From positions 1 through 52,743 of IMG/VR virus record IMGVR_UViG_3300036828_000508: a DNA stretch of 52,743 nucleotides. The stretch is one strand, 5' to 3'. Under the pieces are notes generated by a model. The model searched no databases. It was not told the origin of the DNA and worked only from the letters and a program-made list of their open reading frames with translations. Position 1 is the stretch's first letter. Every line of letters begins with the position of its first letter. The DNA is from a virus. Lineage: Duplodnaviria > Caudoviricetes. Made by a program: the position numbers and the translations under genes. This document shows, piece by piece, positions 3,030 to 36,755 of the stretch.

Positions 3030-3243
3030 CCTTCCAAACGCCTCCCAAATCCTTCCCAAACCCTAAAAACCCCAATAAATCGGCCTAAACTGGCGCTTTA
3101 TCTTCTTTCGCCGCAAGAGATAATCTCTAGCAGAACCGAGTAGGTTACAGCAGAAGCCCTTGCGCCATGCGGGTTTCTCCCTTACGTTCGGGCTAGCGAA
3201 ACCGGGCGTCGGGGCCTCCCAGCCTCCCAAACGCCTCCCAAAA
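3030..3243. other. Putative attP region with arm-type repeats
   Basis: Two clusters of (G)CCTCCCAAA-like repeats (about 3030-3075 and 3214-3243) directly upstream of the integrase. Confidence 0.5.
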
Positions 3244-4506
3244 ATGGAGCTGATCTCTATGCGTGCCCCGCTGCCGCTCACCGTTAGATCAATCGAAGGG
3301 CTCGACCTGCTGCCCGAGGAACGCGACGCCTGGATATGGGACTCCGACAGCGGCCAGCGCTCGGGCCTCGGCCTGCGGCTGCGCCGGGGCAAAGCCGGCG
3401 TTTCCAAAACCTTCTATGCGGCCTATCGCTTTGGCGGCCAGGATCGCCGCGATCCGATCGGCGACGTCTCAGCCTATACGCTGGCCGACGCCCGTCACCG
3501 TGCCTACGAGCACCGCCGCGCCGCGGCCGACGGCAACGATCCGCGCGAGGCCAAGGCGGCCAAGGTTCGCAATGCGATCAAGGCCTCGGGCTGCCCGATC
3601 TTTGCCGACTACACGACACACTATTTGGCGCGGCGCAAAGGCGACCTGCGGCCGAATACCTTTCACTGCCGCACGCGCTATCTGACGCTCGAATACTGTG
3701 CGCCGCTCCACAAGCTGCGGCTCGACCAAATCGACAAGGCCATGATCGCCAGTCGATTGAACTTCCTCGAAGACACCGGCATTGCCAAGGCGAGCGTCAA
3801 TGTCGCCAAATGCGTTCGCATTGCCCTGATCGATTTGTTCAAACTCGCGACCTCCGAGGGCCTCATCGAAATCAATCCAGCGCAGGGTACTCCGCAGCGC
3901 CCCGCGCCCGAGCCTCGCAAGCGAACATTGAGTGACGTCGAACTCGCCGCGCTGTGGAACGCGACCGGCGACGACGGCGAGTTTTCCAAGATCGTGCGCT
4001 TGCTGATCTTGCTCGGTGCCCGTCGTAACGAGATCGGCGGTATGGCCTGGTCGGAATTCGACGGCCTTGGCAATTGGACGCTGCCCGAGCATCGCAGCAA
4101 AACCGGCAACGAGCTACGGCTGCCGCTGTCGCCCGCTGCGCGCGAGATTATCAATTCGATTGAACGACGCGACCGCCGCGATTGCCTGTTTGGCGGCAGC
4201 AACGGCTTTTCGCAGTGGAGTGGCGCCAAAAAGAAGCTCGATGCGCGGCTGCCGCTCGTCAAAAGTTGGACGCTGCACGATCTGCGCCGATCGATGATCA
4301 CGAGCATGCACGAACTCAACATCGAGCCGCATATCATCCGGGCGATCGTCAATCATTCGCGCGGCGATGACGTTCACGGCAAGCATTACAACCATGCGAC
4401 TTACATGCCGCAGAAGGCGACCGCGTTGCAGCGCTGGGCCGACCATGTTCAGGCCCTTGCCGATGGTAAGCCCTCCAACGTCGTGCCACTGAGGCCCGTG
4501 GCATGA
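3244..4506 (+). CDS. int: Tyrosine integrase with N-terminal arm-binding domain
   Basis: GARRNE, HDLRRS, NHS and HYN catalytic R-H-R-H-Y set; start is ATG 3244 or 3259. Confidence 0.93.
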   Translation: MELISMRAPLPLTVRSIEGLDLLPEERDAWIWDSDSGQRSGLGLRLRRGKAGVSKTFYAAYRFGGQDRRDPIGDVSAYTLADARHRAYEHRRAAADGNDPREAKAAKVRNAIKASGCPIFADYTTHYLARRKGDLRPNTFHCRTRYLTLEYCAPLHKLRLDQIDKAMIASRLNFLEDTGIAKASVNVAKCVRIALIDLFKLATSEGLIEINPAQGTPQRPAPEPRKRTLSDVELAALWNATGDDGEFSKIVRLLILLGARRNEIGGMAWSEFDGLGNWTLPEHRSKTGNELRLPLSPAAREIINSIERRDRRDCLFGGSNGFSQWSGAKKKLDARLPLVKSWTLHDLRRSMITSMHELNIEPHIIRAIVNHSRGDDVHGKHYNHATYMPQKATALQRWADHVQALADGKPSNVVPLRPVA

Positions 4507-4653: not shown

Positions 4654-5319
4654 ATGGACATCGCTCGATTGATCTACGAAAAGGGCCTGCGGGTCGGACC
4701 AGACCCGGCCGGTCACTACGTCTACCTTTGGAGCCACGACGGCGTCGCCCGCTACGTTGGCCGAGGCAGGGAAAATGCTCGAGGCCGGCCGCGCTGGCTG
4801 GCTCACGCCACACCCAAGGTCAACGCTTCCAACCAACCGTGGCGGCTATATTCCGAGAAGCACGTTCGCGAAATGTCGTGCTCGATCGTGGCCGAAGGGC
4901 GCGACGACGAGAGCGCGGCTGCGGACATCGAGGCGGCCGAGATTGCCCGCCACGGCTTGCTCAAAGATGAGACCGGAACGCTTCTCAACGACAAACGCGG
5001 CTCGGCCTTCTATGGCCGGGTCGGGAAGGGCCAGCGCACCTCAACCTACCCTGGCCATCAGGAATGGGTGAAGATCCGGAACGCGGGCCGCTTCCCGCTG
5101 GACGCGGTGTTGCGGCGGGTCGTTCACGGCAATCCCAAGAAGCCGGGTTCGCCGGGCGCGGCTTACATCGAACTGTATCCGCAGCCGGGCGAGACCATCA
5201 TCGTGCGCGAGATATATGAGCGCGGCCGGGCGAAGGGCTTAACCGATGCCCAGCAGCACAATCATCTCTCCTGGGATTTGTTGCACGGCTTCATCGAAAT
5301 CGTGAAGCCCGCGCCATGA
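4654..5319 (+). CDS. GIY-YIG-like nuclease domain protein
   Basis: YVYLW...RYVGRG...RW.AH, conserved E (DIEAAEI) and LLN. Confidence 0.65.
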   Translation: MDIARLIYEKGLRVGPDPAGHYVYLWSHDGVARYVGRGRENARGRPRWLAHATPKVNASNQPWRLYSEKHVREMSCSIVAEGRDDESAAADIEAAEIARHGLLKDETGTLLNDKRGSAFYGRVGKGQRTSTYPGHQEWVKIRNAGRFPLDAVLRRVVHGNPKKPGSPGAAYIELYPQPGETIIVREIYERGRAKGLTDAQQHNHLSWDLLHGFIEIVKPAP

Positions 5320-5389: not shown

Positions 5390-5572
5390 ATGAAGCACAT
5401 TTGTTTGATCATGGTCGTGCTGGCGTTTGGCGTCGGCACGGCGGACGCCCAGCAGCAGCGGACATTCTATGATGCTAACGGCCGCGTCACCGGTCGCGCT
5501 GCAACCGATTCGCAGGGCACGACGACGTACTACGACTCGCGCGGCAACGTCGTCGGCCGATCCTCAAAATAA
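5390..5572 (+). CDS. Small secreted protein
   Basis: Signal peptide (ADA); two YD..G.V.GR repeats; AGGAG RBS. Confidence 0.6.
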   Translation: MKHICLIMVVLAFGVGTADAQQQRTFYDANGRVTGRAATDSQGTTTYYDSRGNVVGRSSK

Positions 5573-5592
5573 CTGCTTATGAAACGGCCACC

Positions 5593-5775
5593 TTATAACA
5601 ACTCCGGCTTATCGAACGGCGCGGCCCACATATCAAACCATTTGCCTTCGATCCTGCGTCGATAGTCGTCGGCAATTTCTTGCATGATCGCAATCTCGCG
5701 GTCGTCATCGCTTATGCTGCGCCGCAACGCCAGCTCGCGCTCGACGCATTTTAGTTTGGTCGCCGCGTCAAACAT
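5593..5775 (-). CDS. Hypothetical phage protein
   Basis: KLKCVERELALRR ORF overlapping the end of the upstream gene. Confidence 0.5.
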   Translation of the reverse strand: MFDAATKLKCVERELALRRSISDDDREIAIMQEIADDYRRRIEGKWFDMWAAPFDKPELL

Positions 5776-6346
5776 TAGAGTCGGCCCTTTCGTCATTGGG
5801 ATCTGCCGGTTGCTTCGGCGCGCGGCGGCGCGTTGCATCGGCCGCGAGCTGGTCGATCTCATCACGCATCGCGTCGATGGCACCGTTGAGATGCGGAAGC
5901 GACCGGCCGAGAGTCAGCACGGCCAAATATTTCGCGACGAAGCTTTCCAGTTCGTGTTTGGCCCGCTCAATGACCTGCACTCGCAAGTCCCGATCGCCCA
6001 TAATGCGGCGGCGCGTGACATAGCCGCGGTGATCGTCCGGAGTCCTGACCGAATAAAACGCGCGGTCAGATACTGTCGGATTGTTCCTCACCTCGACGTG
6101 AACAATCCGAAGGCGGTTGACGAAATGCCGCGCCTGGTCGAGCCGGTAAAGGTGCGCCGCATGCTTCTCGTTCCAGTCGAATAAATCATGACACGGATGC
6201 GAACGATTCCGCGCTTGCTCGACAATCTTCTCTGTCGCCACCGCGGAAGGATCGGCACCATCCGCAAGCTGCTCGATAAAGTCGCCAAAGATCTGCGCTT
6301 CGATCGCAGGCGCCGGGCCGCCTAATCTCCATTGATAGATCGTCAT
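5768..6346 (-). CDS. Hypothetical protein, candidate accessory factor of the RAMP/array locus
   Basis: IVEQARNRSHPCHDLFDWNEKHAAHLYRLDQAR motif; GGAG RBS; starts about 30 nt after the array ends. Confidence 0.75.
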   Translation of the reverse strand: MTIYQWRLGGPAPAIEAQIFGDFIEQLADGADPSAVATEKIVEQARNRSHPCHDLFDWNEKHAAHLYRLDQARHFVNRLRIVHVEVRNNPTVSDRAFYSVRTPDDHRGYVTRRRIMGDRDLRVQVIERAKHELESFVAKYLAVLTLGRSLPHLNGAIDAMRDEIDQLAADATRRRAPKQPADPNDERADSNV

Positions 6347-6377
6347 TTCCGCTGCTCCGTTGTTTGATCAAAAAAGG

Positions 6378-8160
6378 TCCTGCCGTTCCACTGCCCGCCG
6401 CTGCCAGCCGGTGCCAGCCTTGCCGATGCTGGCCATTCCGTTCCTGCCAATCCATTCCTGCCGTTCCGCTGCTGGCCTGTGCCCGCCGTTGCAGGCCACT
6501 GCACGCCTTGCCATTCCTGCCGCTCCATTCCGCTCCTGCCACTCCGATGCTTGCCGATGCCAGCCTCGCCAATGCCCGCCTCGCCGCTCCTGCCGTTCCA
6601 TTGCTGTGCCGTGCCTGCCATGCCGCGCCAGTGCGCGCCTCTCCTGCCATTCCGTTGCTTGTCGTGCCGATGCTTGCCCTTGCGGGCCATTGCTTGCCAC
6701 TGCACGCCTTGCCATTCCTGCCGTTCCAATGCCGGCCGGTGCGTGCCCATGCTTGCCAAGCCAATGCTCGCCGCTCCTGCCATTCCGATGCCAGCCATGC
6801 CATTGCTGTGCGTGCCGATGCTTGCCGATCCACTCCTGCCGTTCCATTGCCGGCCGGTGCTTGCCGTGCCTGTGCACGCCGCTGCCCGCCAAGCCACTCC
6901 TGCCATTCCTATGCCAGCCGCGCCGATGCGTGCCCGTGCACGCCGTTGCTAGCCACTGCTCGCCGAGCCCATCCTGCCGCTCCAATGCTCGCCAGTGCGT
7001 GCCGCGCCGGTGCTTGCCACTGCCCGCCAGACCATTCCTGCCATTCCATTGCTTGCCGATGCCTGCCGTTGCTTGCCGTTGCGAGCCTCTGCCTGCCACT
7101 GCGCGCCATGCCACTCCTGCCGTTCCACGCCGGTGCATGCCCGTGCGTGCCAGTGCCTGCCGAGCCGGTGCATGCCGCGCCGCTCCTGCCATTCCGATGC
7201 TCGCCGCGCCGTTGCTGTGCGATGCTTGCCATTGCAGGCCACTGCGCGCCTCGCCTTGCCACTCCTGCCGTTCCAATGCCTGCCGCTCCAATGCGCGCCT
7301 ATGCCCGCCGCTCCGTTGCTCGCCGATCCACTCCTGCCGATCCGATCCGGTGCTCGCCATTGCCCGCCGCTGCTTGCCATGCCGCTCCTGCCATTCCAAT
7401 GCGCGCCGATGCTGTGCGGGCCATTGCGGGCCATTGCCGGCCGTTGCCCGCCGCGCCCATGCGTGCCGCTGCATGCCATTCCTGCCGTTCCAATCCGTGG
7501 CGAGCCACGCCACGCCGCGCCGCGCCTATGCTTGCCCTGCCATTCCTGCCAATCCGATGCCCGCCACTGCTTGCCCTGCCATTCCGATGCGAGCCGGTGC
7601 GAGCCAGTGCTTGCCCTGCCGTTCCTGCCATTCCATTGCTGTGCGTTGCCTGCCGATACGTGCCGATCCGGTGCGAGCCGATCCGGTGCGAGCCTCGCCA
7701 TTCCTGCCGTTCCATTGCCCGCCAGGCCATTCCATTGCTCGCCGCGCCAATGCCAGCCCTTCCTTTGCCAGCCGGTCCACTCCTGCCATTCCACTGCCTG
7801 CCGGTGCCTGCCAATGCGATGCTTGCCTCGCCACGCCATGCCCAACCGCTCCTGCCATTCCGATGCGCCGTTCCATTCCTGCCGCGCCAGTGCTTGCCAC
7901 TGCCCGCCACTGCCTGCCGAGCCATTCCTGCCGCTCCAATGCCTGCCTATGCGGGCCCGGCCGATGCCTGCCGGTGCGTGCCATTGCCAGCCTTGCCATT
8001 CCTGCCACTCCGATGCGCGCCGCGCCGCTGCATGCCGGTGCGTGCCAGTGCGCGCCAATGCTTGCCTTGCCTCGCCACTCCTGCCATTCCAATGCCCGCC
8101 ATTGCATGCCGCTGCCAGCCAATGCTTTGCTCGCCACGCCAATGCCTTCCATTCCATTCC
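6378..8160 (-). ncRNA. Pentamer-periodic (GGC/GCA/GGA)-NN repeat array, about 28 units; candidate guide-RNA array
   Basis: + strand parses as GCC/TGC/TCC + NN; 28 TCCTGCC delimiters counted by eye, 26 of 27 spacings equal 5n+4. RNA status is inferred. Confidence 0.8.
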
Positions 8161-8161
8161 G

Positions 8162-8199
8162 GCGCGGCCGTGAAGCAAACAAACACTTCACGGCCGCGC
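8162..8199 (-). promoter_or_regulatory. Perfect 14-bp hairpin leader between the RAMP gene and the array
   Basis: GCGCGGCCGTGAAG-N10-CTTCACGGCCGCGC. Confidence 0.75.
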
Positions 8200-8211
8200 A
8201 AACCCTTCAAC

Positions 8212-8973
8212 CTATTCGGCCGCGATCAACTCCGCCGCATCAAACAATTTTCCATCTTCGAATTGCTCGATCTCTGCCGCCGTTGCGAGACGCCAAGTTC
8301 CAAAAGTTCCGGATTTGCTTTCTTTGCTACCAGGGCGCCATTCGCACAGCCCCTCGATGTGTCCCGCGATCGCGATGCCTTGCAAAAGTTGAGAGGGCGA
8401 GATCATGGATGGTAAAAATTGAATGCCGACCAACACCCCCCACGGCCAAAATTCGGGACGGTGGCGAATATCGACGACGCCGCTCGCATTGCGCACCACG
8501 TCTGTTCGCATGCGGGGATTGTCTTTGGTGGTGATAATGCGGACGAGATTTGTTGCTAAGTCGTCAGGATGAACACGTAGGCTCTTGGCGGTTCTCAGCG
8601 TCACCCCGCTCCCTTTAGGAAAACCGCAGGAGAATGCCGCCTTGATGCCGCCTGCCGGAATTCCATCGGAGCCGTCCGAGAGCCGGTAACGAGCCGCCTG
8701 GAAATTTGCTTCCGGGTCTTTCGGGTCGCGGCCTTCGCTCGCCTTCCCCATGTGTTTGTCCAAAATCGAATGGATCAACTTGCTGCTAAATTTGTGTGTG
8801 ATGACCGGCGATGTTCCGATCAGCAGCGTCGTCATGCTCAAAGTCTTGACGCCCGGGATCGTCATGATGCCGGTCTTGCTGGTGTTGATTGCCGTCTTCG
8901 GCGGTGCCTCGACCGCGGTTTCGATCTTCGCCTTTGCCTTGGCAACCGTCTTGGTCTTCGTTTTCTCAAGCAT
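8212..8973 (-). CDS. Stand-alone Cas7-like RAMP-superfamily protein
   Basis: First strand LIGTSPVITH, GIPAGGIKAA helix, HRPEFWPW, and C-terminal glycine-rich loop GHIEGLCEWRP...GTFGTW. Confidence 0.75.
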   Translation of the reverse strand: MLEKTKTKTVAKAKAKIETAVEAPPKTAINTSKTGIMTIPGVKTLSMTTLLIGTSPVITHKFSSKLIHSILDKHMGKASEGRDPKDPEANFQAARYRLSDGSDGIPAGGIKAAFSCGFPKGSGVTLRTAKSLRVHPDDLATNLVRIITTKDNPRMRTDVVRNASGVVDIRHRPEFWPWGVLVGIQFLPSMISPSQLLQGIAIAGHIEGLCEWRPGSKESKSGTFGTWRLATAAEIEQFEDGKLFDAAELIAAE

Positions 8974-9035
8974 GGGCTTTGGTCCTTGTGGTTTTACGCC
9001 AGCGCCGGGATGGTGCTGGCGGCGCAGTTTGAAGG

Positions 9036-9263
9036 CTAAAAGGGGCGAGCCCCTGCAGCAGGAAGCGGCCGCACATTGGTGAGCGCTTCGCGCCTGGTCA
9101 TGCCACGTTTGCGCTCGCTGAGATTGACGGCGTGCAATCGGCCGTCGCGGACAAGATTGCGCAGGGTTTCAACTGAGACGCGGCGCAATGCGGCGGCTTC
9201 GGTCAAGCTGACAACTCCGTCGAGCCATTGTTCATGCTCGGGTGAATTTATCCTGGGCGGCAC
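9036..9263 (-). CDS. Excisionase-like / MerR-type HTH protein
   Basis: SLTEAAALRRVSVETLRNLVRDGRL. Confidence 0.7.
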   Translation of the reverse strand: MPPRINSPEHEQWLDGVVSLTEAAALRRVSVETLRNLVRDGRLHAVNLSERKRGMTRREALTNVRPLPAAGARPF

Positions 9264-9266
9264 GGC

Positions 9267-9722
9267 TCATTCTCCGTTTGTGATGGGGCCTTTGGCGACG
9301 ATGCTTGGCAGCGGATCTTCTGCGGGCGGCGGCGGTATCGCCAGCGGCGGCAGTTTTGCGCGCACACCGCCGAGCTGATCGATCGCGGCGAAGCCATCGA
9401 GCAGCACCTTGCTGGCCGTGGTGTATTGCGCGGCAATGACCGCAATCGTCTGCCGAGTATGGTCGACCTCGGCGAGCAAGCCGAGTTCGCGCAACTTGAT
9501 TTGATCGACTTCGGTCTCGGCGAGCAGCGCCCGATTGCGCCAGTCGGCGAGTTCACGCTCGAGATCTGCGTTATGCGCAACCACGTCGAGATAGCGTTGC
9601 GCGGCGCGCTTGGCCTCGTCGGCATATTCGTTGTGCGTCGGCGCGCGCATCGGCCTACCTTGCGGCGTCTCCGTGACGGGCGGTGCTCCCTTAAATCGCT
9701 CGAGCATTGGCTGTCCTCCCAT
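9267..9722 (-). CDS. Coiled-coil hypothetical protein
   Basis: ORF in the leftward operon with heptad character. Confidence 0.55.
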   Translation of the reverse strand: MGGQPMLERFKGAPPVTETPQGRPMRAPTHNEYADEAKRAAQRYLDVVAHNADLERELADWRNRALLAETEVDQIKLRELGLLAEVDHTRQTIAVIAAQYTTASKVLLDGFAAIDQLGGVRAKLPPLAIPPPPAEDPLPSIVAKGPITNGE

Positions 9723-10164: not shown

Positions 10165-11151
10165 TCACTCGCTAAAGCTCGGCAGCGGCGAGCCGTCGAA
10201 GCCGGCCTGCCAGCACAAATGCTCGCGGGTGCGATCTTTGTTACGGTATTCGGGCGGCGATCCTTTACGCTCGCCATTGCTGGCGCGCCATTTTTTGCCG
10301 CGCTCGTAGGCCTCTTCGAGTTCGGCCGCCGCCGCGGGAGCAGGTGTTTGCTCACTACCGCCCTCCGCTGGCGTTATGACTTCGGAGGCCGAGGCAAAAA
10401 AATCGAGCGCGCTGCCGGCGGCGCGCTGCTCGTCCCGCGATGGCGGCGTCTCGATGCCGAGCGATGCCTGCTCGTCGCGCTGCAGGAAGTGATCGACGTC
10501 GCTCGACTTCGGCAGCAGTTTCGCCAAGGCGCGTAATGCAGTCTTTTTTTGCATCTCGGATTCCCACATTTTCCAAGGTGCATCGTCGCGAGAGGCCCGG
10601 CTCATATTGCGGCGTTTATTTATTTCCTTGAGCGTCATCGGCTCGACAAAAAATCCGCCATCGACGGTTGTCGCCGCCGCGTAAACCAGCTTGACTTTGC
10701 GGTCGCCGGTCTGCTCGTAGTCTGGAACGTGCTTGAAATGCTCGCCGGCCTCGTCGGTCCAGTGCGCGAATTCTTCGCCTTCGTAAACAATGCTGGCGCC
10801 AATCCATTTGAAGGTTCCGGAATTGCGAAACTTTTTCAGCAAACCCTGATACATCGGCAAATAGTTTGCGGTGCTTTTGTAAGCGACGATGGCGGCCTCG
10901 CTGCCGTCCGGCATAAGCCCGTCCTGGGCGCAGCGCATGCAGGCAACAAACAGGCTGCGCTTGTCGCAGGCGAGCAAATCGGGATTGATCTGCACCGCGG
11001 TCATCACCGCCGCGACAAAGCGTTCGGGTTTGATATGCGGTGGCAGCGCGCTGCGCAGCGAGTCAATGCGCTCGTTGAGATAATTGCGCAGCACGATGAT
11101 CGGATGTGGCGGCTTGGTGGTTTCGGCGTTGGCGACGGCGGTCTCAGCCAT
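10165..11151 (-). CDS. recT: RecT-family single-strand annealing recombinase
   Basis: ALPPHIKPERF, CAQDGLMPD, MYQGL, PWKMWESEMQKKTALR; start MAETAV. Confidence 0.9.
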   Translation of the reverse strand: MAETAVANAETTKPPHPIIVLRNYLNERIDSLRSALPPHIKPERFVAAVMTAVQINPDLLACDKRSLFVACMRCAQDGLMPDGSEAAIVAYKSTANYLPMYQGLLKKFRNSGTFKWIGASIVYEGEEFAHWTDEAGEHFKHVPDYEQTGDRKVKLVYAAATTVDGGFFVEPMTLKEINKRRNMSRASRDDAPWKMWESEMQKKTALRALAKLLPKSSDVDHFLQRDEQASLGIETPPSRDEQRAAGSALDFFASASEVITPAEGGSEQTPAPAAAAELEEAYERGKKWRASNGERKGSPPEYRNKDRTREHLCWQAGFDGSPLPSFSE

Positions 11152-12064
11152 TTGCTTGATCCTTGTGATGAATGCGCAGCGTGCGAATGTCCTTCGCTGG
11201 CACGGTGTATTGATCGCGATGATATGACTTCCAGGTGATAGACCAACCGGGCAAGCCGACGATACGATCTGCATCACGCATGAGATATTTTATTTGGGTT
11301 TCTATTTCCTGCTTGCGGTCGTCGAAGCGCGACAGCTGCGCCATAATTGCCTCGCGCTGATCGAGCAGCCCCAGCAGCTCGTTGTCGCCGCCGAGATCGA
11401 TCGACTTGCCGGGAACTTCGTGCGGCGCGATCAGCGCCAGGAGTTCGGCGTCTTTGCCGTAGTCGGGATCCGGCTCGCGCCCAGCCTCGACGTCATTCCA
11501 GAACTGTTTGACAGCGTCGCGGATTCTTTGCTGCACAACAGGCAGCAGCTCCACCTCGCGGATGACGCAGCTCAGATCATAGGCATCGACCTTCAGCGCG
11601 GCGACGACCGCGAAAGCGGCGCCGGTTAGCGCGGCTTCGGTGGTGACCTGCAACTCGATCCATAGCGGTGTCTTGCCGTCCTGCCATTCGCGCTCGAAGA
11701 CGCTTGGCGCGGCGGTTTTCAGCTGCAAAACGCCGAGGCCGCGCTCGTCGCCATGAATGAAATAGTCCGGCGTGGCGCCGAGACGGCAATCTGGGTCGCG
11801 AAAATAGAACTGGCTTTTCTCAAGCAGCCAGTCCGGCCGCTGTTCGCCGACCGCGAGCGCGGCTGCGGGTTCCATCAGCCGGCCGCGGCGTAGTACCGGA
11901 TTGTCGGCGTCGCTGAACTCGACGCCGCTGTGCTGCATATAAAGCTTAAGCGCAGTCAGATAAGGATGAACGCCGTACAATGCACCAATTGTGCTGGCAG
12001 TTACGTCACGCTTTCTCAAGTCGAGCCACTGCGAACGGCTTGTGATTAAATGCTTTTCTATCAT
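11144..12064 (-). CDS. YqaJ-like viral recombinase exonuclease
   Basis: WLDLRKRDVTAS, GRLMEP, GATPDY, QLKT; adjacent to recT. Confidence 0.88.
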   Translation of the reverse strand: MIEKHLITSRSQWLDLRKRDVTASTIGALYGVHPYLTALKLYMQHSGVEFSDADNPVLRRGRLMEPAAALAVGEQRPDWLLEKSQFYFRDPDCRLGATPDYFIHGDERGLGVLQLKTAAPSVFEREWQDGKTPLWIELQVTTEAALTGAAFAVVAALKVDAYDLSCVIREVELLPVVQQRIRDAVKQFWNDVEAGREPDPDYGKDAELLALIAPHEVPGKSIDLGGDNELLGLLDQREAIMAQLSRFDDRKQEIETQIKYLMRDADRIVGLPGWSITWKSYHRDQYTVPAKDIRTLRIHHKDQANG

Positions 12065-13608: not shown

Positions 13609-13926
13609 ATGAAGGTGAAACATAAAATGACGACAAGGTGGGGCCTCAATTTATTTTCTCGTCTAAGGAACGGTGGGGTGTGGGGGATACCGCGCAGCGG
13701 GGTCGTTTTTCAAAAGCAGAAAGATGATCTGGTTTGGGTTGGCAGTGTCCCACCAAACGGCTCGCTCGCACTCCCCGTGGACGCCTATGTTGTTCAAGAA
13801 AGCGAATTTCTTACGGCGCGGGAGAAGTTTGCGGAGGTTGGTATTTTGGTTACGAAGGCCGCTGTGATCGAGAAATTTGAAAATATGGATGAGGCGACAG
13901 CGCGATGGGAGGATAGCAAGTCATGA
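13609..13926 (+). CDS. Hypothetical protein
   Basis: Operon packing; GGVWGIPRSG. Confidence 0.55.
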   Translation: MKVKHKMTTRWGLNLFSRLRNGGVWGIPRSGVVFQKQKDDLVWVGSVPPNGSLALPVDAYVVQESEFLTAREKFAEVGILVTKAAVIEKFENMDEATARWEDSKS

Positions 13927-14780
13927 GCGACGAATTTACCAAAATTGCTGGGAAGCTTCTCACCAATGTCCGCGATCTGGTCGATTGGGGCATCGAGGGC
14001 GGACACACGACCGCAGAGCAATTGCGGTTGACCGTCGAGGCGCGGCGGGCGACGGCCGCCAAGCTCGTCGAAGGCGGCCTGTCACAGCGGCAAGCCGCCA
14101 AAGCGTTGGGGGTCGATCAGGCAACGGTCAGTCGCGACGTGATGCGGAATGCATCGAAAAGTGATGCAAAGCGCATCACAACAACCAAGGCCGAGAAGCG
14201 GGCGCAGCGCGAAATTGATCTCGCAAGCCAGCAAGTCGCGCTGCCGGGCAAGCGCTACGGCGTCATTGTTGCTGACTCTGAATGGCGCTTCGAGCCATAT
14301 AGCCGCGAGACCGGCATGGATCGCGCCGCCGATAATCATTATCCGACGAGTGTGACAGAGATTATTGCAGCGCGCGACGTGCCGAGTATCGCGGCCGACG
14401 ATTGTGTTTTGTTCTCATGGGCGACGGTGCCGATGCTGCGTGACGCAATGCTTGTGATGGAGGCGTGGGGCTTCACGTACAAGTCGCACGCTATTTGGGA
14501 CAAGGTCTATATCGGTACCGGCTACTGGTTTCGCAATCGCCATGAACTTCTGCTGGTCGGCACCAAGGGCGCAATCCCAGCTCCCGCGATGGGAGATCAA
14601 TTCGCTTCGGTAATGACGATCGCGCGCAAGGAGCATTCAGCAAAGCCCGACCAGTTTCTCGAAATGATCGAGCAGTATTTTCCAACTCTGCCGAAGATCG
14701 AGCTGAACCGTCGCGGTCCGGCGCGGCCGGGATGGGATGCTTGGGGCAATGAGGCCGAAACTGCGGCGGCAGCCGAATGA
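13923..14780 (+). CDS. MT-A70-family adenine methyltransferase with N-terminal HTH
   Basis: IVADSEW, HYPT, GTGYWFRNRHELLLVG, HSAKP; SQRQAAKALGVDQATVSRD. Confidence 0.85.
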   Translation: MSDEFTKIAGKLLTNVRDLVDWGIEGGHTTAEQLRLTVEARRATAAKLVEGGLSQRQAAKALGVDQATVSRDVMRNASKSDAKRITTTKAEKRAQREIDLASQQVALPGKRYGVIVADSEWRFEPYSRETGMDRAADNHYPTSVTEIIAARDVPSIAADDCVLFSWATVPMLRDAMLVMEAWGFTYKSHAIWDKVYIGTGYWFRNRHELLLVGTKGAIPAPAMGDQFASVMTIARKEHSAKPDQFLEMIEQYFPTLPKIELNRRGPARPGWDAWGNEAETAAAAE

Positions 14781-16121: not shown

Positions 16122-18164
16122 ATGACCGCCGAACTCGACAATCCGACAAAAAGGCGCCGGCGGCTCGTGTCGGCTGGATTTCAGCCGATCCCTTTGACTG
16201 GCAAACGTCCAGCAATGGATCAATGGTCAAAAAAGACCGAAACTAATTTCACCGAAATTGGCCTGTGGGAAAAAGTTTACCCGTGGTCGACCAACACCGG
16301 GATTTTGACCCAGCGCACGCCGACGCTCGATATTGACATCCTCGACGACGAGCCGGCGGCTGCGGTTGAGGCGCTCGCTCGCGAAATGTTCGAAGAACGC
16401 GGATATTTTCTGGTCCGCTTTGGCAAACGCCCAAAGCGCGCAATTATCTGCCGCACCGATCAGCCGTTTAAAAAGGTCGCCACTTCGCTACTCGCGCCAG
16501 ACGGCAAGACCGATCAAAAAGTTGAAGTCCTCGCCGATGGACAGCAGGTCGTGGTCTTCGGCACGCATCCAGAAACATTGAAGCCCTATAGCTGGTTCGG
16601 TGGCGAACCCGGAGACATTCGCTGGGAAGACCTGCCTTACATTTCCGCCGACGACGCCAAGGAGTTTGTTGGGCGTGCCAGCGAACTGCTGGTCAAGGAT
16701 TTTGGCTATCAGCAGCCGGTCGAGATCAAGGAACGTGCGCGACCCGGCGACGAGCCCGGCGAATTTCATCACGCTAATTGGGCGCAGCTTGTTGCCAATG
16801 TCGTCGGCGGCGTCGAGCTGCACGACAGCCTGCGCGATCTGTCAGCTTCGCTGATCGCCAGCAACATTGAAGCCGATAACGTCATTCGCATGCTGCAAGC
16901 GATCATGCTCGCCAGCACCATGCCACACGACGAGCGCTGGAAAAGCCGCTTTGACGAGATCACGCGCTCGGTCGTTTCCGCAACCAGCAAATTCGAGCCG
17001 GAAAAGCCGGCGCCGGCTGTCGAGCAGGCAACGCCTTATGTTGCGCCTGATGAGGAAACGATTCCGCCTCGCGCATGGCTCTATGGTGGCCACTATATCC
17101 GGCAAGCCGCAACCGCCACCGTCGCTCCGGGCGGCTTCGGCAAGACGACGCTCATTCTCTATGAGGCGATCAATATGGTCGCCCAAGGTTTGCGCGTCTG
17201 GTATCTCTCCGGTGAAGATCCTCGCATCGAACTCGACCGCCGCATTGCAGCGCATTGCGCCAAGTATCACATCACGCTCGCCGCGCTGCCCGGCCGCCTG
17301 TTTGTCGACGACCGCGCCAGCTTTCCATTTTTTGTCGGCTTGAGCCTGCGTCCCGGCACAGTGCGCTTCGACGACGCCAGCTTGACGCGCTTCGAAAACG
17401 CGATTTTAGCCGGCAAAATAGATGTGACGATGTTGGACCCCTTCATTTCGTTTCATGCCGTTCCGGAAAACGATAACGGCTGCATCGACGCCGTCGTCAA
17501 GCGTGTCGCAGGCATCAGCCAGCGCACCAACTGCGGAATCGAAATCAGTCATCACGTTCGCAAACCGTTTGCCGGTCAAGCCACGCTCACCGTCGACGAC
17601 GCTCGCGGTGGTTCGGCCATCATCAATGCCGTGCGCTCGGGCCGCGTTATCAATCGCATGACCGCAGCGGAAGCCGAGCAGGCCAAAATCAGTGACGAGC
17701 AGCGCACCGCGTACATTCGGCTCGACCGGGGAAAGCGCAACATGGCACCCCCCGATAAGGCAACGTGGTTTTGCCTCGTCAATCAACCGCTTCGAAACGG
17801 CGATCAGGTACAGGCGCTCAGCACTTGGCAATTTCCCTCATTGTTTCAAGGCCTTTCGGTCGAGGACACTGAGCACATTCGCAAGCTCGTCCAGGCTACT
17901 CCCTATCGGGCCGACCCACGCTCGGAACACTGGCTCGGCATCGAGGTCGCGGCGCGCGCTGGCCTCAATATCCACCACGCGCCGGATGTTAAGAAAATTC
18001 AAAAGCTTATCGCGACCTGGCTCAGTAACGGCGTGTTCGTTAAGCGGGAAATGTACGACAAGGCGACGCGCAAGCCGCGCACGTTCTACGTCGCCAAAGA
18101 CACCCAACCCAGCCCCGACGAAGGTGGTAAATTGTTCCGTGAGGAGGATGATGCAGATGATTAA
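16122..18164 (+). CDS. Primase-polymerase fused to AAA (RepA-like) helicase
   Basis: NTGIL...LDIDI, GTHPET; Walker A APGGFGKT, MLDPF, SHHVRK, ARGGSA. Confidence 0.88.
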   Translation: MTAELDNPTKRRRRLVSAGFQPIPLTGKRPAMDQWSKKTETNFTEIGLWEKVYPWSTNTGILTQRTPTLDIDILDDEPAAAVEALAREMFEERGYFLVRFGKRPKRAIICRTDQPFKKVATSLLAPDGKTDQKVEVLADGQQVVVFGTHPETLKPYSWFGGEPGDIRWEDLPYISADDAKEFVGRASELLVKDFGYQQPVEIKERARPGDEPGEFHHANWAQLVANVVGGVELHDSLRDLSASLIASNIEADNVIRMLQAIMLASTMPHDERWKSRFDEITRSVVSATSKFEPEKPAPAVEQATPYVAPDEETIPPRAWLYGGHYIRQAATATVAPGGFGKTTLILYEAINMVAQGLRVWYLSGEDPRIELDRRIAAHCAKYHITLAALPGRLFVDDRASFPFFVGLSLRPGTVRFDDASLTRFENAILAGKIDVTMLDPFISFHAVPENDNGCIDAVVKRVAGISQRTNCGIEISHHVRKPFAGQATLTVDDARGGSAIINAVRSGRVINRMTAAEAEQAKISDEQRTAYIRLDRGKRNMAPPDKATWFCLVNQPLRNGDQVQALSTWQFPSLFQGLSVEDTEHIRKLVQATPYRADPRSEHWLGIEVAARAGLNIHHAPDVKKIQKLIATWLSNGVFVKREMYDKATRKPRTFYVAKDTQPSPDEGGKLFREEDDADD

Positions 18165-24360: not shown

Positions 24361-24975
24361 ATGCGTGGTTTTCTCGCTTACGTCCTGCCGGTCGATAGTG
24401 GACCTGTTGATCCCGGTTTCGGCGTGCCGGGCTGGCCCGCCCACCCGATTGCGCCTGGCGGTCCGCCGCCTGGTCCGTCGCAAGGGCCCGGCTTCCCGAC
24501 GCATCCGATTGCACCCGGTGGCCCGCCTCCGGGCATTTGGGGCGGTCGTCCGCCGAATTGGGTAGATACTACGCCGCCTGGTCCGCAGCCGAGTCCGGGC
24601 TGGCCTCCGGTCGTGATGCCGCCGATTTACTATCCGGGCGGAACGCCTCCGGGCATTTGGGGCGGTCGTCCGCCGGACTACGTCGACATCGGTCCGCCGC
24701 CTCCGCAGCCGGTGCCTGGTTGGCCTCCTGTTGCGATGCCGCCGATTTACTATCCGCCTAGCGGCAGCGGCAGGCCGCCTGGCATTTGGGGCGGTGGCAA
24801 CGAGCCGTTCCCGACGCCGCCGATCCATCTGCCGCCCGAATACCCGATACCGGAAGGCAAGGTTGCGATCCTGGTCTGGACGCCGGACGACGGTTTTCAG
24901 GTCAAAGTCATCGAGAAGCCGCCGGGCTACAATCCGCCGCCCGGTGCCGCGGTGCCGACACCGCAGGAAGCCTAA
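24361..24975 (+). CDS. Proline/glycine-rich repeat protein
   Basis: AGGAG RBS; repeated HPIAPGGPPPG, PPGIWGG, PPIYYP. Confidence 0.7.
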   Translation: MRGFLAYVLPVDSGPVDPGFGVPGWPAHPIAPGGPPPGPSQGPGFPTHPIAPGGPPPGIWGGRPPNWVDTTPPGPQPSPGWPPVVMPPIYYPGGTPPGIWGGRPPDYVDIGPPPPQPVPGWPPVAMPPIYYPPSGSGRPPGIWGGGNEPFPTPPIHLPPEYPIPEGKVAILVWTPDDGFQVKVIEKPPGYNPPPGAAVPTPQEA

Positions 24976-25095
24976 CGCTAGGAATTGACCTGATCGCGAG
25001 ATGATCGCGAAAGACGGTTGCTGTTAACGATGGCAGCCGTCCCAGAGAGAGTCCGCGACTCCCTCCCGCAGGCTGCGGACTCTCTCGCTTCTCCT

Positions 25096-25128
25096 AAAAA
25101 AGTGGGGCCGCCGGACGAGGGCGACCCC
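25096..25128 (-). terminator. Intrinsic terminator downstream of the orphan array unit
   Basis: - strand GGGGTCGCC-N7-GGCGGCCCC-AC-TTTTTT. Confidence 0.6.
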
Positions 25129-25134
25129 GTAGAT

Positions 25135-25191
25135 CCCTGCCATTCCATTGCCAGGCTTTGCATTGCTTGCCTCGCCGAGCCGCGCCACTCC
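25135..25191 (-). ncRNA. Orphan single unit of the pentamer array
   Basis: + strand: CCC T GCC AT TCC AT TGC CA GGC TT TGC AT TGC TT GCC TC GCC GA GCC GC GCC AC TCC. Confidence 0.7.
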
Positions 25192-25232
25192 TTCAACAAC
25201 CCGAAGCCTATCGGACCGACGAAGGTAAAGCC

Positions 25233-29554: not shown

Positions 29555-30628
29555 ATGCTCGATGCCGGCGCCGCCGTCATCGTCGAGCTGGAGGCCAAAT
29601 GGGGTCGCGATCTCGATCTCATGCGCGCGGAGGCGCGCGCGATCATCGCCGACCTGCGCGCCGCGAATGTCGAGCTGGTCGCGCAGCAGCGCGAGAAGAT
29701 CGATTATCGCCTAGCCTCGCTCAAAGACGGTGACGTCGGCGAGCCGGGCAGGAACGGCAGCGTCGGCGATCCAGGGCCAGCTGGCCCAGCCGGTGCGCCT
29801 GGCTTGCCGGGCGACAAAGGCGATACCGGTGAGCCCGGCGAGCCCGGAAAGAACGGCGCCGATGGCGCGCCTGGAGTCGAAGGACCGCCCGGCGCTGTCG
29901 GGCCGGTCGGGCCGCCCGGCGCTAACGGCGAGCCCGGCGAGCCTGGTCGCAATGGCGACGCCGGCGCGTCCGGCGCCAAGGGCGATCGCGGCGAGCCTGG
30001 CCGCAATGGTGAACCCGGCGTGGTCGGCGCCAAGGGCGAGCCCGGTGAGCCTGGCCGCAACGGCGAGCCCGGCATGGTCGGCGCCAAGGGCGATCGCGGC
30101 GACAAGGGCGAAGCCGGTCCGCGCGGCGGCGTCGACAAGATTGTCGCCTGGTCGGATCGGATCTTCTACGAGGGCCGTCTGGTCACGCACAAAGGCTCGT
30201 GCTGGCAGGCCGCTTGCGATACCGCCAGGCAGCCCGGCACTTCCGCCGATTGGCTCGAGATCGCCGCCGGCGGCGCACCCGGTGGCACCTTCAAAATTCG
30301 CGGCACCTGGCGCGCCGAGGAAAAATACCGCGCGCTCGATGTCGTCACCCTCGATTACGGCTGGTTCGTCGCCAGGCAGGACGATCCCGGCCCGATTCCC
30401 GGTCCTGGCTGGCAGGCCGGCCCGGTCGGCCGCCGCGGCGAAAAAGGCATCGCTGGCGAGCGCGGCGGCAAAGGCGATCCCGGCAAGTCGGCGCCGCATT
30501 GGATCGGCCTCAAGGCCGACGGCTATAGCCTCACCGCGGTGATGAGCGATGGCGCTATCGGGCCGCGCATTTCGCTCTTCTCGATGTTTGAGCAATTCGA
30601 GGCCGAGCTGAGACTGCGGAGCAAATAG
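29555..30628 (+). CDS. Collagen-like (Gly-X-Y) head-associated protein
   Basis: Long GXY tract; C-terminal VTHKGSCWQA module; AGGAG RBS. Confidence 0.75.
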   Translation: MLDAGAAVIVELEAKWGRDLDLMRAEARAIIADLRAANVELVAQQREKIDYRLASLKDGDVGEPGRNGSVGDPGPAGPAGAPGLPGDKGDTGEPGEPGKNGADGAPGVEGPPGAVGPVGPPGANGEPGEPGRNGDAGASGAKGDRGEPGRNGEPGVVGAKGEPGEPGRNGEPGMVGAKGDRGDKGEAGPRGGVDKIVAWSDRIFYEGRLVTHKGSCWQAACDTARQPGTSADWLEIAAGGAPGGTFKIRGTWRAEEKYRALDVVTLDYGWFVARQDDPGPIPGPGWQAGPVGRRGEKGIAGERGGKGDPGKSAPHWIGLKADGYSLTAVMSDGAIGPRISLFSMFEQFEAELRLRSK

Positions 30629-36675: not shown

Positions 36676-36755
36676 GCCCTGTCCTCGTGTTAACCATACA
36701 AAACAGCCAGATAATACGGGCACTTTCGCTATCTGTCAAAAATAGGAGATGGTAC

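What the first reader, a model, noticed from the sequence alone, without database searches (positions are those of the whole stretch)
6378..8160. Array grammar: strict 5-nt period, GGCAGGA delimiters, unit lengths of 5n+4
+ strand example: TCC T GCC GT TCC AC TGC CC GCC GC TGC CA GCC GG TGC CA GCC TT GCC GA TGC TG GCC AT TCC GT TCC T GCC. TCCTGCC occurs at about 6378, 6442, 6456, 6515, 6534, 6588, 6642, 6716, 6775, 6834, 6898, 6972, 7036, 7115, 7184, 7263, 7332, 7386, 7480, 7544, 7623, 7702, 7781, 7850, 7877, 7926, 8000 and 8079. Spacings are mostly 49-94 nt and equal 5n+4 in 26 of 27 cases; the exception (27 nt) lacks one NN. GGA triplets cluster at unit ends and GGC/GCA fill the interior. 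Conserved phase with variable NN is not what simple slippage satellites show and suggests selection on information content. The 1-nt phase slip may mark a processing site or filament boundary.
Basis: seen in the sequence. Interest (0 to 1): 0.9.

Follow-up and report, generated by a model that had tools for sequence, protein, structure and literature searches.

The report
Phage VIPR guide-RNA array
The 5-base-period array is a phage "VIPR" guide-RNA array, a CRISPR-like RNA-guided gene-silencing system first described in 2026 preprints, so it is a real new example of a recently known kind.

Summary
Every cell is a conserved triplet plus two free bases.

Read on the minus strand, the array is (GGC/GCA/GGA)+NN. 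It lies between two co-oriented genes:
- 8212-8973 is a RAMP/Cas7-like protein by fold. Its profile's best PDB sequence hit is "SUSP1 Vipr protein".
- 5768-6346 is a conserved partner, found in 35 of 40 related loci.

Of 40 IMG/VR loci encoding the RAMP, 38 carry a 5-nt-period array. The G lattice is always on the gene's strand.

This is the VIPR system of bioRxiv 10.64898/2026.04.26.720920. In that system NN dinucleotides specify DNA targets with one skipped base, and "staggered" arrays overlap by 1 nt. That overlap explains 5n+4.

Testing the skip rule here gave two natural targets, both in codon frame with the skipped base at wobble:
- a rival phage's vipr gene, 22/24;
- a helicase-primase gene, 17/18, and 18/18 in a metagenome homologue.

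A solitary unit at 25134-25205 is followed by a terminator-like hairpin.

Verdict: a new member of a known kind. RNA ends were not tested.

The parts
8212..8973 (-). vipr gene: 253-aa single-domain RAMP (Cas7-like) protein
   Evidence: PHROG phrog_4652, function unknown; no Pfam family. AF2 model pLDDT 85.4. Foldseek PDB hits are Csm3/Cas7, type VII Cas7 and Cas7-11, with E from about 1e-5. In VIA-align the top 29 rows are all CRISPR RAMPs, Z up to 9.7. Profile A1's best PDB sequence hit is 36pp_D 'SUSP1 Vipr protein', E 1.6e-4, aligning RhRP...GlcEWRP with SYRP...GVGDWRP.
6378..8162 (-). staggered vrRNA array: 28 junctions GGCAG|GA, about 24 full units of 10-19 pentanucleotide cells (GGC/GCA/GGA + NN) and 4 short or degenerate units
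   Evidence: The G lattice lies on the strand of vipr, as in 38 of 38 related arrays. Phase slips are 29 short and 0 long.
8161..8200 (.). 14-bp inverted repeat between the vipr stop codon and the first array cell
   Evidence: Read directly. The terminator scan did not call it because there is no T run. Its role is unknown.
5768..6346 (-). vap-like accessory gene, 192 aa
   Evidence: phrog_15946, function unknown. A homologue lies on the same strand next to vipr in 35 of 40 IMG/VR loci. Conserved motif H..F.WDD..AA...R..QAR. AF2 pLDDT 85.7. No significant structural or PDB sequence match.
7702..7787 (-). vrRNA unit whose 12 interior NN match a rival phage's vipr gene
   Evidence: 22/24 under the 1-nt skip in L070 5556-5591 (= G003 34429-34464) and in L071/G004. 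The coding-sense reading is the peptide PSMISANQLLQG.
7480..7550 (-). vrRNA unit whose 9 interior NN match a helicase-primase gene of other phages
   Evidence: 17/18 in G005 17937-17963. 18/18 in L128 3236-3261, inside a 650-aa homologue.
25134..25205 (-). solitary (orphan) vrRNA-like unit, about 14 cells ending GGAATGGCAGG
   Evidence: It lies antisense in the 5' leader of the protease-major head fusion gene 25233-27698.
25095..25128 (-). terminator-like hairpin (9 pairs, 8 G-C) followed by ACTTTTTT, directly 3' of the solitary unit

Best explanation
The array is the guide-RNA array of a phage VIPR (Viral Interference Programmable Repeat) system.

Mechanism taken from the preprints or inferred, not shown here:
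- The minus strand is transcribed together with vipr (8212-8973) and the accessory gene (5768-6346).
- The transcript gives about 24 vrRNAs of 10-19 pentanucleotide repeats.
- One Vipr (RAMP) protomer binds each repeat and holds the conserved triplet, with G at every fifth base.
- The two free bases are left exposed.
- The string of NN pairs base-pairs with double-stranded DNA in which every third base is skipped.
- The filament then sits on the target gene and silences it.

Shown or read directly here:
- Successive vrRNAs overlap by one base (GGCAG + GGA share a G), which is the published 'staggered' layout and gives the 5n+4 spacing.
- The anatomy, the protein's fold and its sequence link to SUSP1 Vipr.
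- The conserved three-part module across phages.
- Strand co-orientation of array and gene.
- Two natural targets that obey the 1-nt skip in codon frame.

The targets are genes of competing phages.
For: (1) Grammar: 26 of 27 spacings are 5n+4. Cells are triplet+NN, with 1.93, 1.0 and 0.9 bits at the triplet positions and 0.13 and 0.10 bits at NN.

(2) Neighbour 8212-8973 is a RAMP. By Foldseek, the hits with E <= 0.001 that are listed (ranks 1-50) are CRISPR Cas7-type chains (Csm3, type VII Cas7, Cas7-11). By VIA-align, rows 1-29 are all CRISPR RAMPs.

(3) The profile of 49 homologues hits 'SUSP1 Vipr protein' (36pp_D) as its best PDB sequence, E 1.6e-4. The alignment places R172 and E211-W212-R213 opposite SUSP1 R138 and D177-W178-R179. 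In SUSP1 those residues hold G1 and G2 and line the Y3 pocket (10.64898/2026.04.26.720927 section 5). Here they are invariant or at least 90% conserved in A1.

(4) Module conservation: 38 of 40 IMG/VR loci encoding a homologue have a 5-nt-period array within about 1.5 kb. One of the two exceptions ends at the contig end. 35 of 40 also have the 192-aa partner on the same strand. Phage G001 shares only these parts and a methyltransferase with the window, and its array also keeps 5n+4 spacings.

(5) Orientation: in 38 of 38 loci with an array, the array's G periodicity exceeds its C periodicity on the gene's strand (four pairs are near-duplicates).

(6) Phase slips are 545 short against 67 long over 42 parsed arrays (summed; near-duplicates and array edges included).

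(7) Both strands fold less well than all 100 shuffles (z +2.6 and +2.75).

(8) Skip rule: guide 7702 scores 22/24 in the vipr gene of L070/L071, against 17/24 for controls. Guide 7480 scores 17/18 in the G005 helicase-primase and 18/18 in the L128 homologue at the same site. Both hits occur only with skip 1, lie in codon frame with the skipped base at wobble, and cover exactly the hypervariable cells.

(9) NN frequencies fit codon positions 1-2 (antisense r 0.65) better than positions 2-3 or 3-1.

(10) No self-target: 0 of 18 guides with 9 or more cells reach 80% on the phage's own genome.

(11) The published description matches: a vipr + vap two-gene locus, pentanucleotide repeats, 9-16 repeats per vrRNA, staggered 1-nt overlaps, solo vrRNAs, and vrRNAs aimed at rivals' vipr.
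Against: No RNA data: transcription, strand, processing sites and binding to the protein are not shown for this phage (none listed).

Only 2 of 25 guides found a target.
- In the last local test, 3 real hits in 100 scans passed E<0.05 against 8 in 500 shuffled scans. One of the 3 (L128) had been fetched with that guide's own pattern.
- Three 10-cell exact patterns found nothing in IMG/VR.
- The full guide 7702 found nothing exact in metagenomes.
- Guide 7702 also found nothing at 3 or fewer mismatches in 401 genomes of the family of the genome that holds this contig.
- In the all-array test, skip 3 gave about as many low-E hits as skip 1. Most of those were unmasked copies of arrays or low-complexity guides.

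Only 175 of 335 triplets are GGY, and 111 are GCA. GCA does not fit the published SUSP1 pocket that excludes purines at position 3.

There is no structured 3' tail. Rfam finds nothing in 5500-9000, so also no hammerhead.

The partner protein could not be matched to vap1-6.

The protein is 253 aa, against about 20 kDa / 202 aa for SUSP1.
Confidence: 0.93

Rival explanations
1. The RNA is only an assembly track or sponge for the RAMP protein. The filament forms on G-every-5 RNA, but the NN bases carry no targeting information. The complex would act as a decoy or scaffold, in the way that TRAP or CsrB-type RNAs bind many protein subunits.
For: Only 2 of 25 guides have a target. NN is near-random, at 3.86 of 4 bits. 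The RNA is selected against self-structure. The - strand junctions read CAGGA; that this resembles the repeated motif of CsrB is recalled, not from any call.
Against: Both targets are in codon frame, appear only under the 1-nt skip, and end exactly where the hypervariable cells end. One target has a perfect second copy in a homologous gene. NN composition follows codon positions 1-2. Published experiments show NN-programmed repression for SUSP1 Vipr, and this family's profile gives SUSP1 Vipr as its best PDB sequence hit (E 1.6e-4).
Confidence: 0.04
2. A degenerate CRISPR array or a CRISPR-derived anti-CRISPR RNA. The TCCTGCC regions would be repeats, the interiors would be ordinary contiguous spacers, and the RAMP would be a stray Cas7.
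For: The neighbour has a Cas7-like fold. There are conserved junctions and variable interiors.
Against: Interiors keep the strict 5-nt lattice, so they cannot be contiguous protospacer copies. Contiguous (skip 0) matching gave no hit above controls. The conserved module holds only vipr, the partner gene and the array. The other window neighbours compared (9267-9722, 4654-5319, RecT, 5593-5883, integrase) have no blastp homologue in the 40 related loci; the exonuclease has one in 1 locus and the methyltransferase in 3. The loci were not searched specifically for cas genes. Units vary from 49 to 94 nt.
Confidence: 0.01
3. A protein-coding low-complexity gene, or a structural DNA satellite (for example bent DNA, iterons or a packaging site) with no RNA function.
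For: All six frames are largely open across the array. The TGC/GCC alternation gives a 10-bp periodicity.
Against: Junction motifs fall in all three frames, because unit lengths are 5n+4. So no frame conserves a peptide. The open frames follow from the lattice itself: A occurs almost only in NN positions. The lattice is strictly strand-specific, with GCC/TGC/TCC but almost never GGC on the + strand. It is always co-oriented with the RAMP gene, which a DNA-bending signal would not require.
Confidence: 0.02

Closest known systems
VIPR systems with staggered vrRNA arrays (bioRxiv 10.64898/2026.04.26.720920, 10.64898/2026.04.26.720927, 10.64898/2026.10.15.759431)
   Same: Phage-borne two-gene locus: a RAMP 'Vipr' plus an accessory gene. 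Intergenic arrays of pentanucleotide repeats with a conserved G-triplet and hypervariable NN. About 9-16 repeats per RNA. Neighbouring vrRNAs overlap by 1 nt. Targets obey a 1-nt skip at codon wobble. Targets are rival phages, including their vipr genes. Orphan vrRNAs occur elsewhere in phage genomes. The R / (D/E)-W-R RNA-holding residues are conserved.
   Different: The triplets are GGC, GCA and GGA (52% GGY, 33% GCA) instead of GGY. There is no structured tail or pseudoknot; the only conserved 'handle' is about three lattice cells around the junction. The array is very large, with 28 junctions in 1.8 kb. The protein is 253 aa with a Lys/Ala-rich N-terminal extension. The host lineage is different (the contig is binned with a Xanthobacteraceae MAG). 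The type (I-VII) and the vap class could not be assigned, because the supplements and figures were not visible.
Class 1 CRISPR effector backbones (Cas7/Csm3/Cmr4 on crRNA)
   Same: The RRM-based RAMP fold is shared. By the preprint, Vipr keeps the G-loop and thumb and binds one repeat per protomer as a filament; the 6-nt Cas7 register below and the comparison with it are recalled.
   Different: The register is 5 nt with three sequestered bases, against 6 nt with one flipped base for Cas7. The guide is non-contiguous. There is no CRISPR repeat-spacer array, and no cas1/2, Cas5/6/10/11 or nuclease. The system is encoded by the virus.
TRAP-binding (G/U)AG-NN repeats of the Bacillus trp leader (recalled, not from a call)
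   Same: Triplet plus 2-nt spacer grammar on unstructured RNA, with one protein subunit per repeat.
   Different: TRAP is an 11-mer ring with a fixed repeat number and its spacers carry no information. There is no fold relation to a RAMP. This was considered early and dropped once the RAMP fold was found.

Membership tests
VIPR system | Vipr protein: minimal single-RRM RAMP with G-loop and thumb | tested here: met
   AF2 model pLDDT 85.4. Foldseek and VIA-align top hits are Csm3/Cmr4/Cas7-11/Csf2. The glycine-rich GlCEWRPGSK loop and the long beta-hairpin 154-186 are conserved.
VIPR system | Sequence relationship to an experimentally characterised Vipr | tested here: met
   Profile A1 against PDB sequences: the best hit is 36pp_D 'SUSP1 Vipr protein', E 1.6e-4, 45 aligned residues covering the thumb R and the G-loop D/E-W-R. 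The match is short. tblastn of the single protein against the phage collection listed no Escherichia phage.
VIPR system | Adjacent accessory (vap) gene in a minimal two-gene locus | tested here: met
   A homologue of 5768-6346 lies on the same strand in 35 of 40 loci. Which of vap1-6 it is was not testable: no significant fold or PDB sequence match, and the paper's supplementary data were not visible.
VIPR system | vrRNA made of tandem pentanucleotide repeats, with a conserved GGY (or related) triplet alternating with hypervariable NN, 9-16 repeats | tested here: met
   Counting the junction cell, 24 of 28 units have 10-19 cells and 4 have 3-6. Information per position is 1.93, 1.0, 0.9, 0.13 and 0.10 bits. 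The triplet is G-[G/C]-[C/A], a 'related consensus': the paper lists NNNGG, YNNNG and NNNNG variants.
VIPR system | Staggered architecture: neighbouring vrRNAs overlap by 1 nt | tested here: met
   26 of 27 spacings are 5n-1. The junction GGCAGGA reads as GGCAG + GGA.. sharing one G. Legend of Fig. S18. The RNA ends themselves were not observed.
VIPR system | Targets recognised through NN with a 1-nt skip, the skip falling on codon wobble | tested here: met
   2 of 25 guides meet this: 22/24 in L070/L071 vipr; 17/18 in the G005 helicase-primase and 18/18 in the L128 homologue. Both hits are in frame and appear only with skip 1. The other 23 guides found no target in the small sets searched.
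VIPR system | No self-targeting at 80% or more NN match | tested here: met
   0 of 18 guides with 9 or more cells. 5 of 7 shorter guides reach 80%, but none exceeds its shuffled controls. Guide 7702 scores 19/24 (79%) on the phage's own vipr.
VIPR system | vrRNAs are expressed, processed to about 100 nt or less, and co-purify with Vipr; the complex represses transcription | not testable with these tools
   No RNA run was listed for the locus. No bench data.
VIPR system | Invariable structured 3' tail (pseudoknot in the SUSP1 clade) | tested here: not met
   Units abut directly. Only about three semi-conserved lattice cells flank each junction. No Rfam family was found. The RNA is less structured than shuffles. 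The paper describes this tail for the arrays it characterised (type II; SUSP1 and P. fulva clades) and lists tail-less staggered arrays as another architecture. So the tail does not define the system as a whole.
CRISPR-Cas | Direct repeats separated by contiguous unique spacers, with cas adaptation/effector genes | tested here: not met
   Interiors keep the 5-nt lattice. Contiguous matching gave nothing above controls. No neighbour other than the partner gene recurs across the 40 loci; cas genes were not searched for specifically.

The most novel reading that the evidence does not exclude
This clade may use a relaxed triplet code that the published SUSP1 structure does not explain. One third of its cells are GCA: C at the position where SUSP1 cradles G2, and a purine where SUSP1's pocket excludes purines. 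GGC and GCA tend to alternate: GGC->GCA 98 and GCA->GGC 71, against GCA->GCA 10. If the choice of triplet is itself read, for example to set filament register or twist or to bias the skipped base, the array would carry a second layer of information beyond NN. Separately, the orphan vrRNA lies antisense in the leader of the phage's own major head gene and has its own terminator. It could tie VIPR to the phage's late-gene timing rather than only to rivals.
Probability: 0.15. Interest if true: 0.6.

Novelty: new member of a known kind. Interest (0 to 1): 0.42.

Why it matters
VIPR is a newly described way of recognising DNA with RNA: a gapped, codon-periodic code read by a filament of a small RAMP protein. 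It has been proposed as the ancestor of CRISPR effectors.

This locus is an independent rediscovery of that grammar from raw sequence, and it adds useful material:
- a very large tail-less staggered array, with 28 junctions;
- a non-GGY triplet alphabet (GGC/GCA/GGA) that tests the limits of the published recognition pocket;
- two concrete natural targets, a rival's vipr gene and a helicase-primase motif, in an uncultured phage binned with a Xanthobacteraceae MAG;
- evidence that the family also sits in cultured actinobacteriophages, for example next to the immunity region of Mycobacterium phage Saal. Those phages are easy to work with.

It does not open a new category.

Tried and rejected
Early ideas were dropped once the neighbour's RAMP fold was found: TRAP/CsrA-type protein sponge, primase-site array, RecT track, Chi-site array, bent-DNA or iteron origin.

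Searches that found nothing or only unrelated sequence:
- Rfam: no family in 5500-9000 at E<=1.
- blastn of the array against the phage collection: no match.
- The delimiter pattern in IMG/VR gave 18 single chance hits, none periodic.
- Single-protein search for related loci for both flanking genes found no relatives. The alignment-based search succeeded.
- The lattice pattern in IMG/VR gave 40 loci. Of the eight read, only L027 was a true relative; the other seven (L029, L034, L042, L048, L049, L053, L061) are CTGCC/TGCCAGCC-type simple repeats.
- The genome-contig scan found only 3 loci.
- Promoter/terminator scan of 5500-9200: no promoter, and no terminator tied to the array.

Partner protein: Pfam found nothing for the window's protein, and single weak hits to three unrelated families among 36 homologues. 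Foldseek found nothing with E<=0.001. VIA-align hits cover only its C-terminal helical hairpin. PDB sequences gave nothing.

Target searches that found nothing:
- three 10-cell exact patterns in IMG/VR;
- guide 7702 exact in metagenomes;
- guide 7702 at 3 or fewer mismatches in 401 genomes of the family of G002 (0 hits, 1 control hit).

Of the 5 exact metagenome hits of guide 7480, 4 (2 distinct sequences) are not in long ORFs and are taken as chance.

The all-array test is weak. It used 288 guides from 38 arrays. Skip 1 gave 6 real hits against 2 and 0 in controls at E<0.01. Skip 3 gave 8 against 6 and 1, mostly an unmasked copy of an array in L111 and one low-complexity guide.

RNA evidence: no RNA holder was listed, and read laying was not used. 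Complex prediction, the search of protein representatives, the protein-atlas search and the listing of cluster members were not used. Supplementary files and figures of the preprints were not visible, so type (I-VII) and vap class remain unassigned. They may also already list this contig.
Full report
**Observation.** The window is a 52,743-bp IMG/VR virus record with direct terminal repeats. Of the 27 spacings, 26 equal 4 mod 5, and the exception is 27 nt. Autocorrelation peaks at lags 5, 10, 15 and 20 (0.43-0.49), against 0.17-0.25 at off-period lags. An equal-sized flank stays at about 0.25 throughout.

Cut into 5-nt cells, the array is [GCC|TGC|TCC]+NN on the + strand. On the - strand that reads NN+[GGC|GCA|GGA]. 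Of 335 cells, 173 are GGC, 111 GCA, 44 GGA and 7 other. GGA sits near unit ends, with only 11 among the 250 interior cells. The triplet positions hold 1.93, 1.0 and 0.9 bits, and the NN positions 0.13 and 0.10 bits. Interior NN entropy is 3.86 of 4 bits.

**Context.** The array is intergenic, between two - strand genes. These are 8212-8973 (253 aa, phrog_4652, unknown function) and 5768-6346 (192 aa, phrog_15946, unknown function). They lie in the early-left arm of a temperate-type phage: RecT 10165-11277, a YqaJ exonuclease 11144-12064 and an integrase 3160-4506. All six frames are open across the array. This follows from the lattice, because A occurs almost only in NN positions. The junction motif also falls in all three frames, so no peptide is conserved. 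Both strands fold worse than all 100 dinucleotide shuffles (z +2.6 and +2.75). Rfam finds nothing.

**Relatives.** A lattice pattern search in IMG/VR found one syntenic array, in L027 = G001. That phage shares with the window only the two flanking genes, the array and a methyltransferase. Its array keeps 5n+4 spacings: 18 of 19, and the last is a double unit.

The 253-aa protein has 92 homologues, all unnamed and without Pfam domains. An alignment of 49 of them (A1) retrieved 40 IMG/VR loci. Of these, 38 have a strong 5-nt-period array within about 1.5 kb of the gene. Of the two without one, L072 ends at the contig end. In all 38 the lattice is a G lattice on the gene's own strand (four pairs are near-duplicates).

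The triplet differs between phages, for example GGC, GCA, GTC or GTT. Phase slips are overwhelmingly one base short: 545 against 67 over 42 parsed arrays (my sum). A homologue of the 192-aa gene lies on the same strand in 35 of 40 loci, in the orders gene-array-partner, gene-partner-array or array-gene-partner. The unit is thus a mobile three-part module.

**What the protein is.** The AF2 model (pLDDT 85.4) matches CRISPR RAMPs by two independent searches:
- Foldseek finds Csm3, type VII Cas7 and Cas7-11, with E from about 1e-5.
- VIA-align gives only CRISPR RAMPs in rows 1-29, with Z up to 9.7.

[quoted passage not shown] I read its abstract, Results, Discussion, four Methods sections and figure legends found by term search. 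It describes VIPR systems as follows:
- a phage-encoded ancestral RAMP (Vipr), an accessory vap gene, and vrRNAs of 9-16 GGY/NN pentanucleotide repeats;
- the NN dinucleotides specify double-stranded DNA targets with one skipped base, usually the codon wobble;
- natural targets are competing phages, satellites and other VIPR systems;
- the effect is transcriptional repression;
- variants include NNNGG, YNNNG and NNNNG repeats, single vrRNAs, ribozyme-interspersed arrays and 'staggered arrays' in which vrRNAs overlap by 1 nt.

The 1-nt overlap explains the 5n+4 rule directly. GGCAGGA is GGCAG, the last cell of one vrRNA, plus GGA.., the first cell of the next, sharing one G.

A companion preprint, 10.64898/2026.04.26.720927 (abstract and section 5 read), shows one protomer per repeat in a right-handed filament. 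It names the SUSP1 residues that hold the triplet: H17, R138, D177, W178 and R179. A third preprint, 10.64898/2026.10.15.759431 (abstract and section 8 read), describes orphan vrRNAs and vrRNAs aimed at rivals' vipr genes.

**Sequence-level link.** Searching the profile of A1 against PDB sequences gives 'SUSP1 Vipr protein' (36pp_D) as the best hit, E 1.6e-4. The alignment pairs RhRP...GlcEWRP with SYRP...GVGDWRP. So R172 and E211-W212-R213 of the window protein stand opposite R138 and D177-W178-R179. These residues are invariant or at least 90% conserved in A1.

**Testing the code on this array.** I took the interior NN of the 25 units with 8 or more cells (250 dinucleotides).

- *Codon statistics.* NN frequencies fit codon positions 1-2 of the phage's own genes, read antisense (r 0.65) or on both strands (r 0.62). 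The fit is better than for positions 2-3 (r 0.2), positions 3-1 (r -0.17) or a uniform model.

- *Guide 7702.* The guides were scanned over 0.98 Mb of fetched phage DNA under skips 0-3, with reversed and shuffled controls. One outlier appeared. The unit at 7702 scores 22 of 24 with skip 1 in L070 and L071, against 17 of 24 for controls, with E about 2e-5 in that space. The site lies inside their vipr gene, in codon frame, with every skipped base at wobble. Read as codons, the guide spells PSMISANQLLQG, the exact L070 peptide. The two mismatches are synonymous Leu codons. The phage's own vipr scores 19 of 24 at that site.

- *Guide 7480.* After the whole contigs of four relatives were fetched, the unit at 7480 scored 17 of 18 with skip 1 in G005. 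The site is inside a 523-aa helicase-primase ORF (phrog_906), again antisense and in frame. An exact-pattern scan of metagenomes then found a perfect 18 of 18 site at the homologous position of a 650-aa homologue (41.6% identity) in L128. It also found four hits (two distinct sequences) outside long ORFs, which I take as chance.

- *Match limits.* In both cases the match covers exactly the hypervariable cells. It stops at the first cell and the last two cells of the unit, which are the semi-conserved cells around the junction.

- *Self-targeting.* No guide with 9 or more cells reaches 80% on the phage's own genome (0 of 18).

**Limits.**
- Only 2 of 25 guides found targets.
- Exact 10-cell patterns for three other guides found nothing in IMG/VR.
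- Guide 7702 found nothing exact in metagenomes, and nothing at 3 or fewer mismatches in 401 genomes of the family of the genome holding this contig.
- In the last local test, 3 of 100 real scans passed E<0.05, against 8 of 500 shuffled scans. One of the three was fetched with its own pattern.
- The pooled test over 288 guides from 38 arrays is weak.
- No RNA data could be had. Transcription, strand and processing therefore rest on co-orientation and on the preprints.

**Differences from the published exemplars.**
- Only 52% of triplets are GGY, and a third are GCA. GCA does not fit the SUSP1 pocket described as excluding purines at position 3.
- GGC and GCA tend to alternate here, but not in G001, where GCA cells run in series.
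- There is no structured tail.
- The array is unusually long.
- The protein is 253 aa.
- The partner protein has no recognisable fold match beyond a helical hairpin. It could not be equated with vap1-6.

**A second site.** At 25134-25205 there is one further unit of the same grammar and orientation. It shares 16 nt with unit heads in the array. On the - strand it is followed at once by a 9-bp G+C-rich hairpin and a T run. It lies antisense within the 5' leader of the protease-major head fusion gene 25233-27698. I read it as an orphan vrRNA gene, a class described in the third preprint. Its target is unknown.

**Spread.** tblastn of the protein finds 32 records in the cultured-phage collection: Mycobacterium 27, Gordonia 3, one cyanophage and one Pseudomonas phage. 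All matches listed (30 of the 32) lie under genes annotated 'hypothetical protein'. In Mycobacterium phage Saal the gene (gp51) is preceded by a 250-nt spacer holding a GGC-lattice array with ATGGCAGGC junctions. It sits beside the immunity repressor and antirepressor genes.

**Verdict.** It is a VIPR staggered vrRNA array: a new member of a kind made public in 2026 preprints, not a new kind. Confidence is 0.93. Interest is moderate (0.42). It is an independent example with an unusual triplet alphabet, two predicted natural targets and an orphan vrRNA.

Noticed in passing
window 25134-25205 and 25095-25128: A solitary vrRNA-like unit lies 17 kb from the array. It is antisense in the leader of the protease-major head fusion gene and has its own terminator-like hairpin. 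Whether it targets a rival or affects the phage's own late gene is open.
   Followed up: partly
L127 2086-2335 (Mycobacterium phage Saal, NC_023580.1 about 36573-36822): This cultured mycobacteriophage carries a vipr homologue (gp51, annotated hypothetical) and a partner-sized gene (gp52). A GGC-lattice array with ATGGCAGGC junctions sits in the spacer upstream, next to the immunity repressor and antirepressor. In all, 27 Mycobacterium and 3 Gordonia phage records hold homologues.
   Followed up: partly
window 6378-8162: GGC and GCA cells tend to alternate: GGC->GCA 98, GCA->GGC 71, GGC->GGC 43, GCA->GCA 10. In the related array of G001, GCA cells run in series. No explanation was found.
   Followed up: no
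L061 1-550 and 1870-2150: Another IMG/VR contig has arrays of a 10-mer (GATGCCAGCC-like) mixed with a 19-mer, flanking a small gene block. A CTGACTGACCAGTCAGTCAATGGG repeat and a G10 run follow. No vipr was looked for there; it may be unrelated.
   Followed up: no
L034, L042, L048, L049, L053 (IMG/VR contigs): CTGCC/CTGCCC and CCTTGCCTGTG-type microsatellites lie near contig ends of several unrelated phages. They came up only because they match the lattice pattern.
   Followed up: no
window 13923-14780: A DNA methyltransferase gene is 79% identical at protein level to one in G001. Apart from the VIPR module it is the only gene shared by the two otherwise unrelated phages.
   Followed up: no
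window 8161-8200: A perfect 14-bp inverted repeat with a 10-nt loop sits between the vipr stop codon and the first array cell. It has no T run on either strand. G001 lacks it.
   Followed up: no
window 29916-30102 and 51617-52098: Collagen-like (9-nt-period Gly-X-Y) repeats lie in tail-fibre genes. A 120-nt tandem duplication lies at 24524-24756, in the ORF upstream of the head gene.
   Followed up: no
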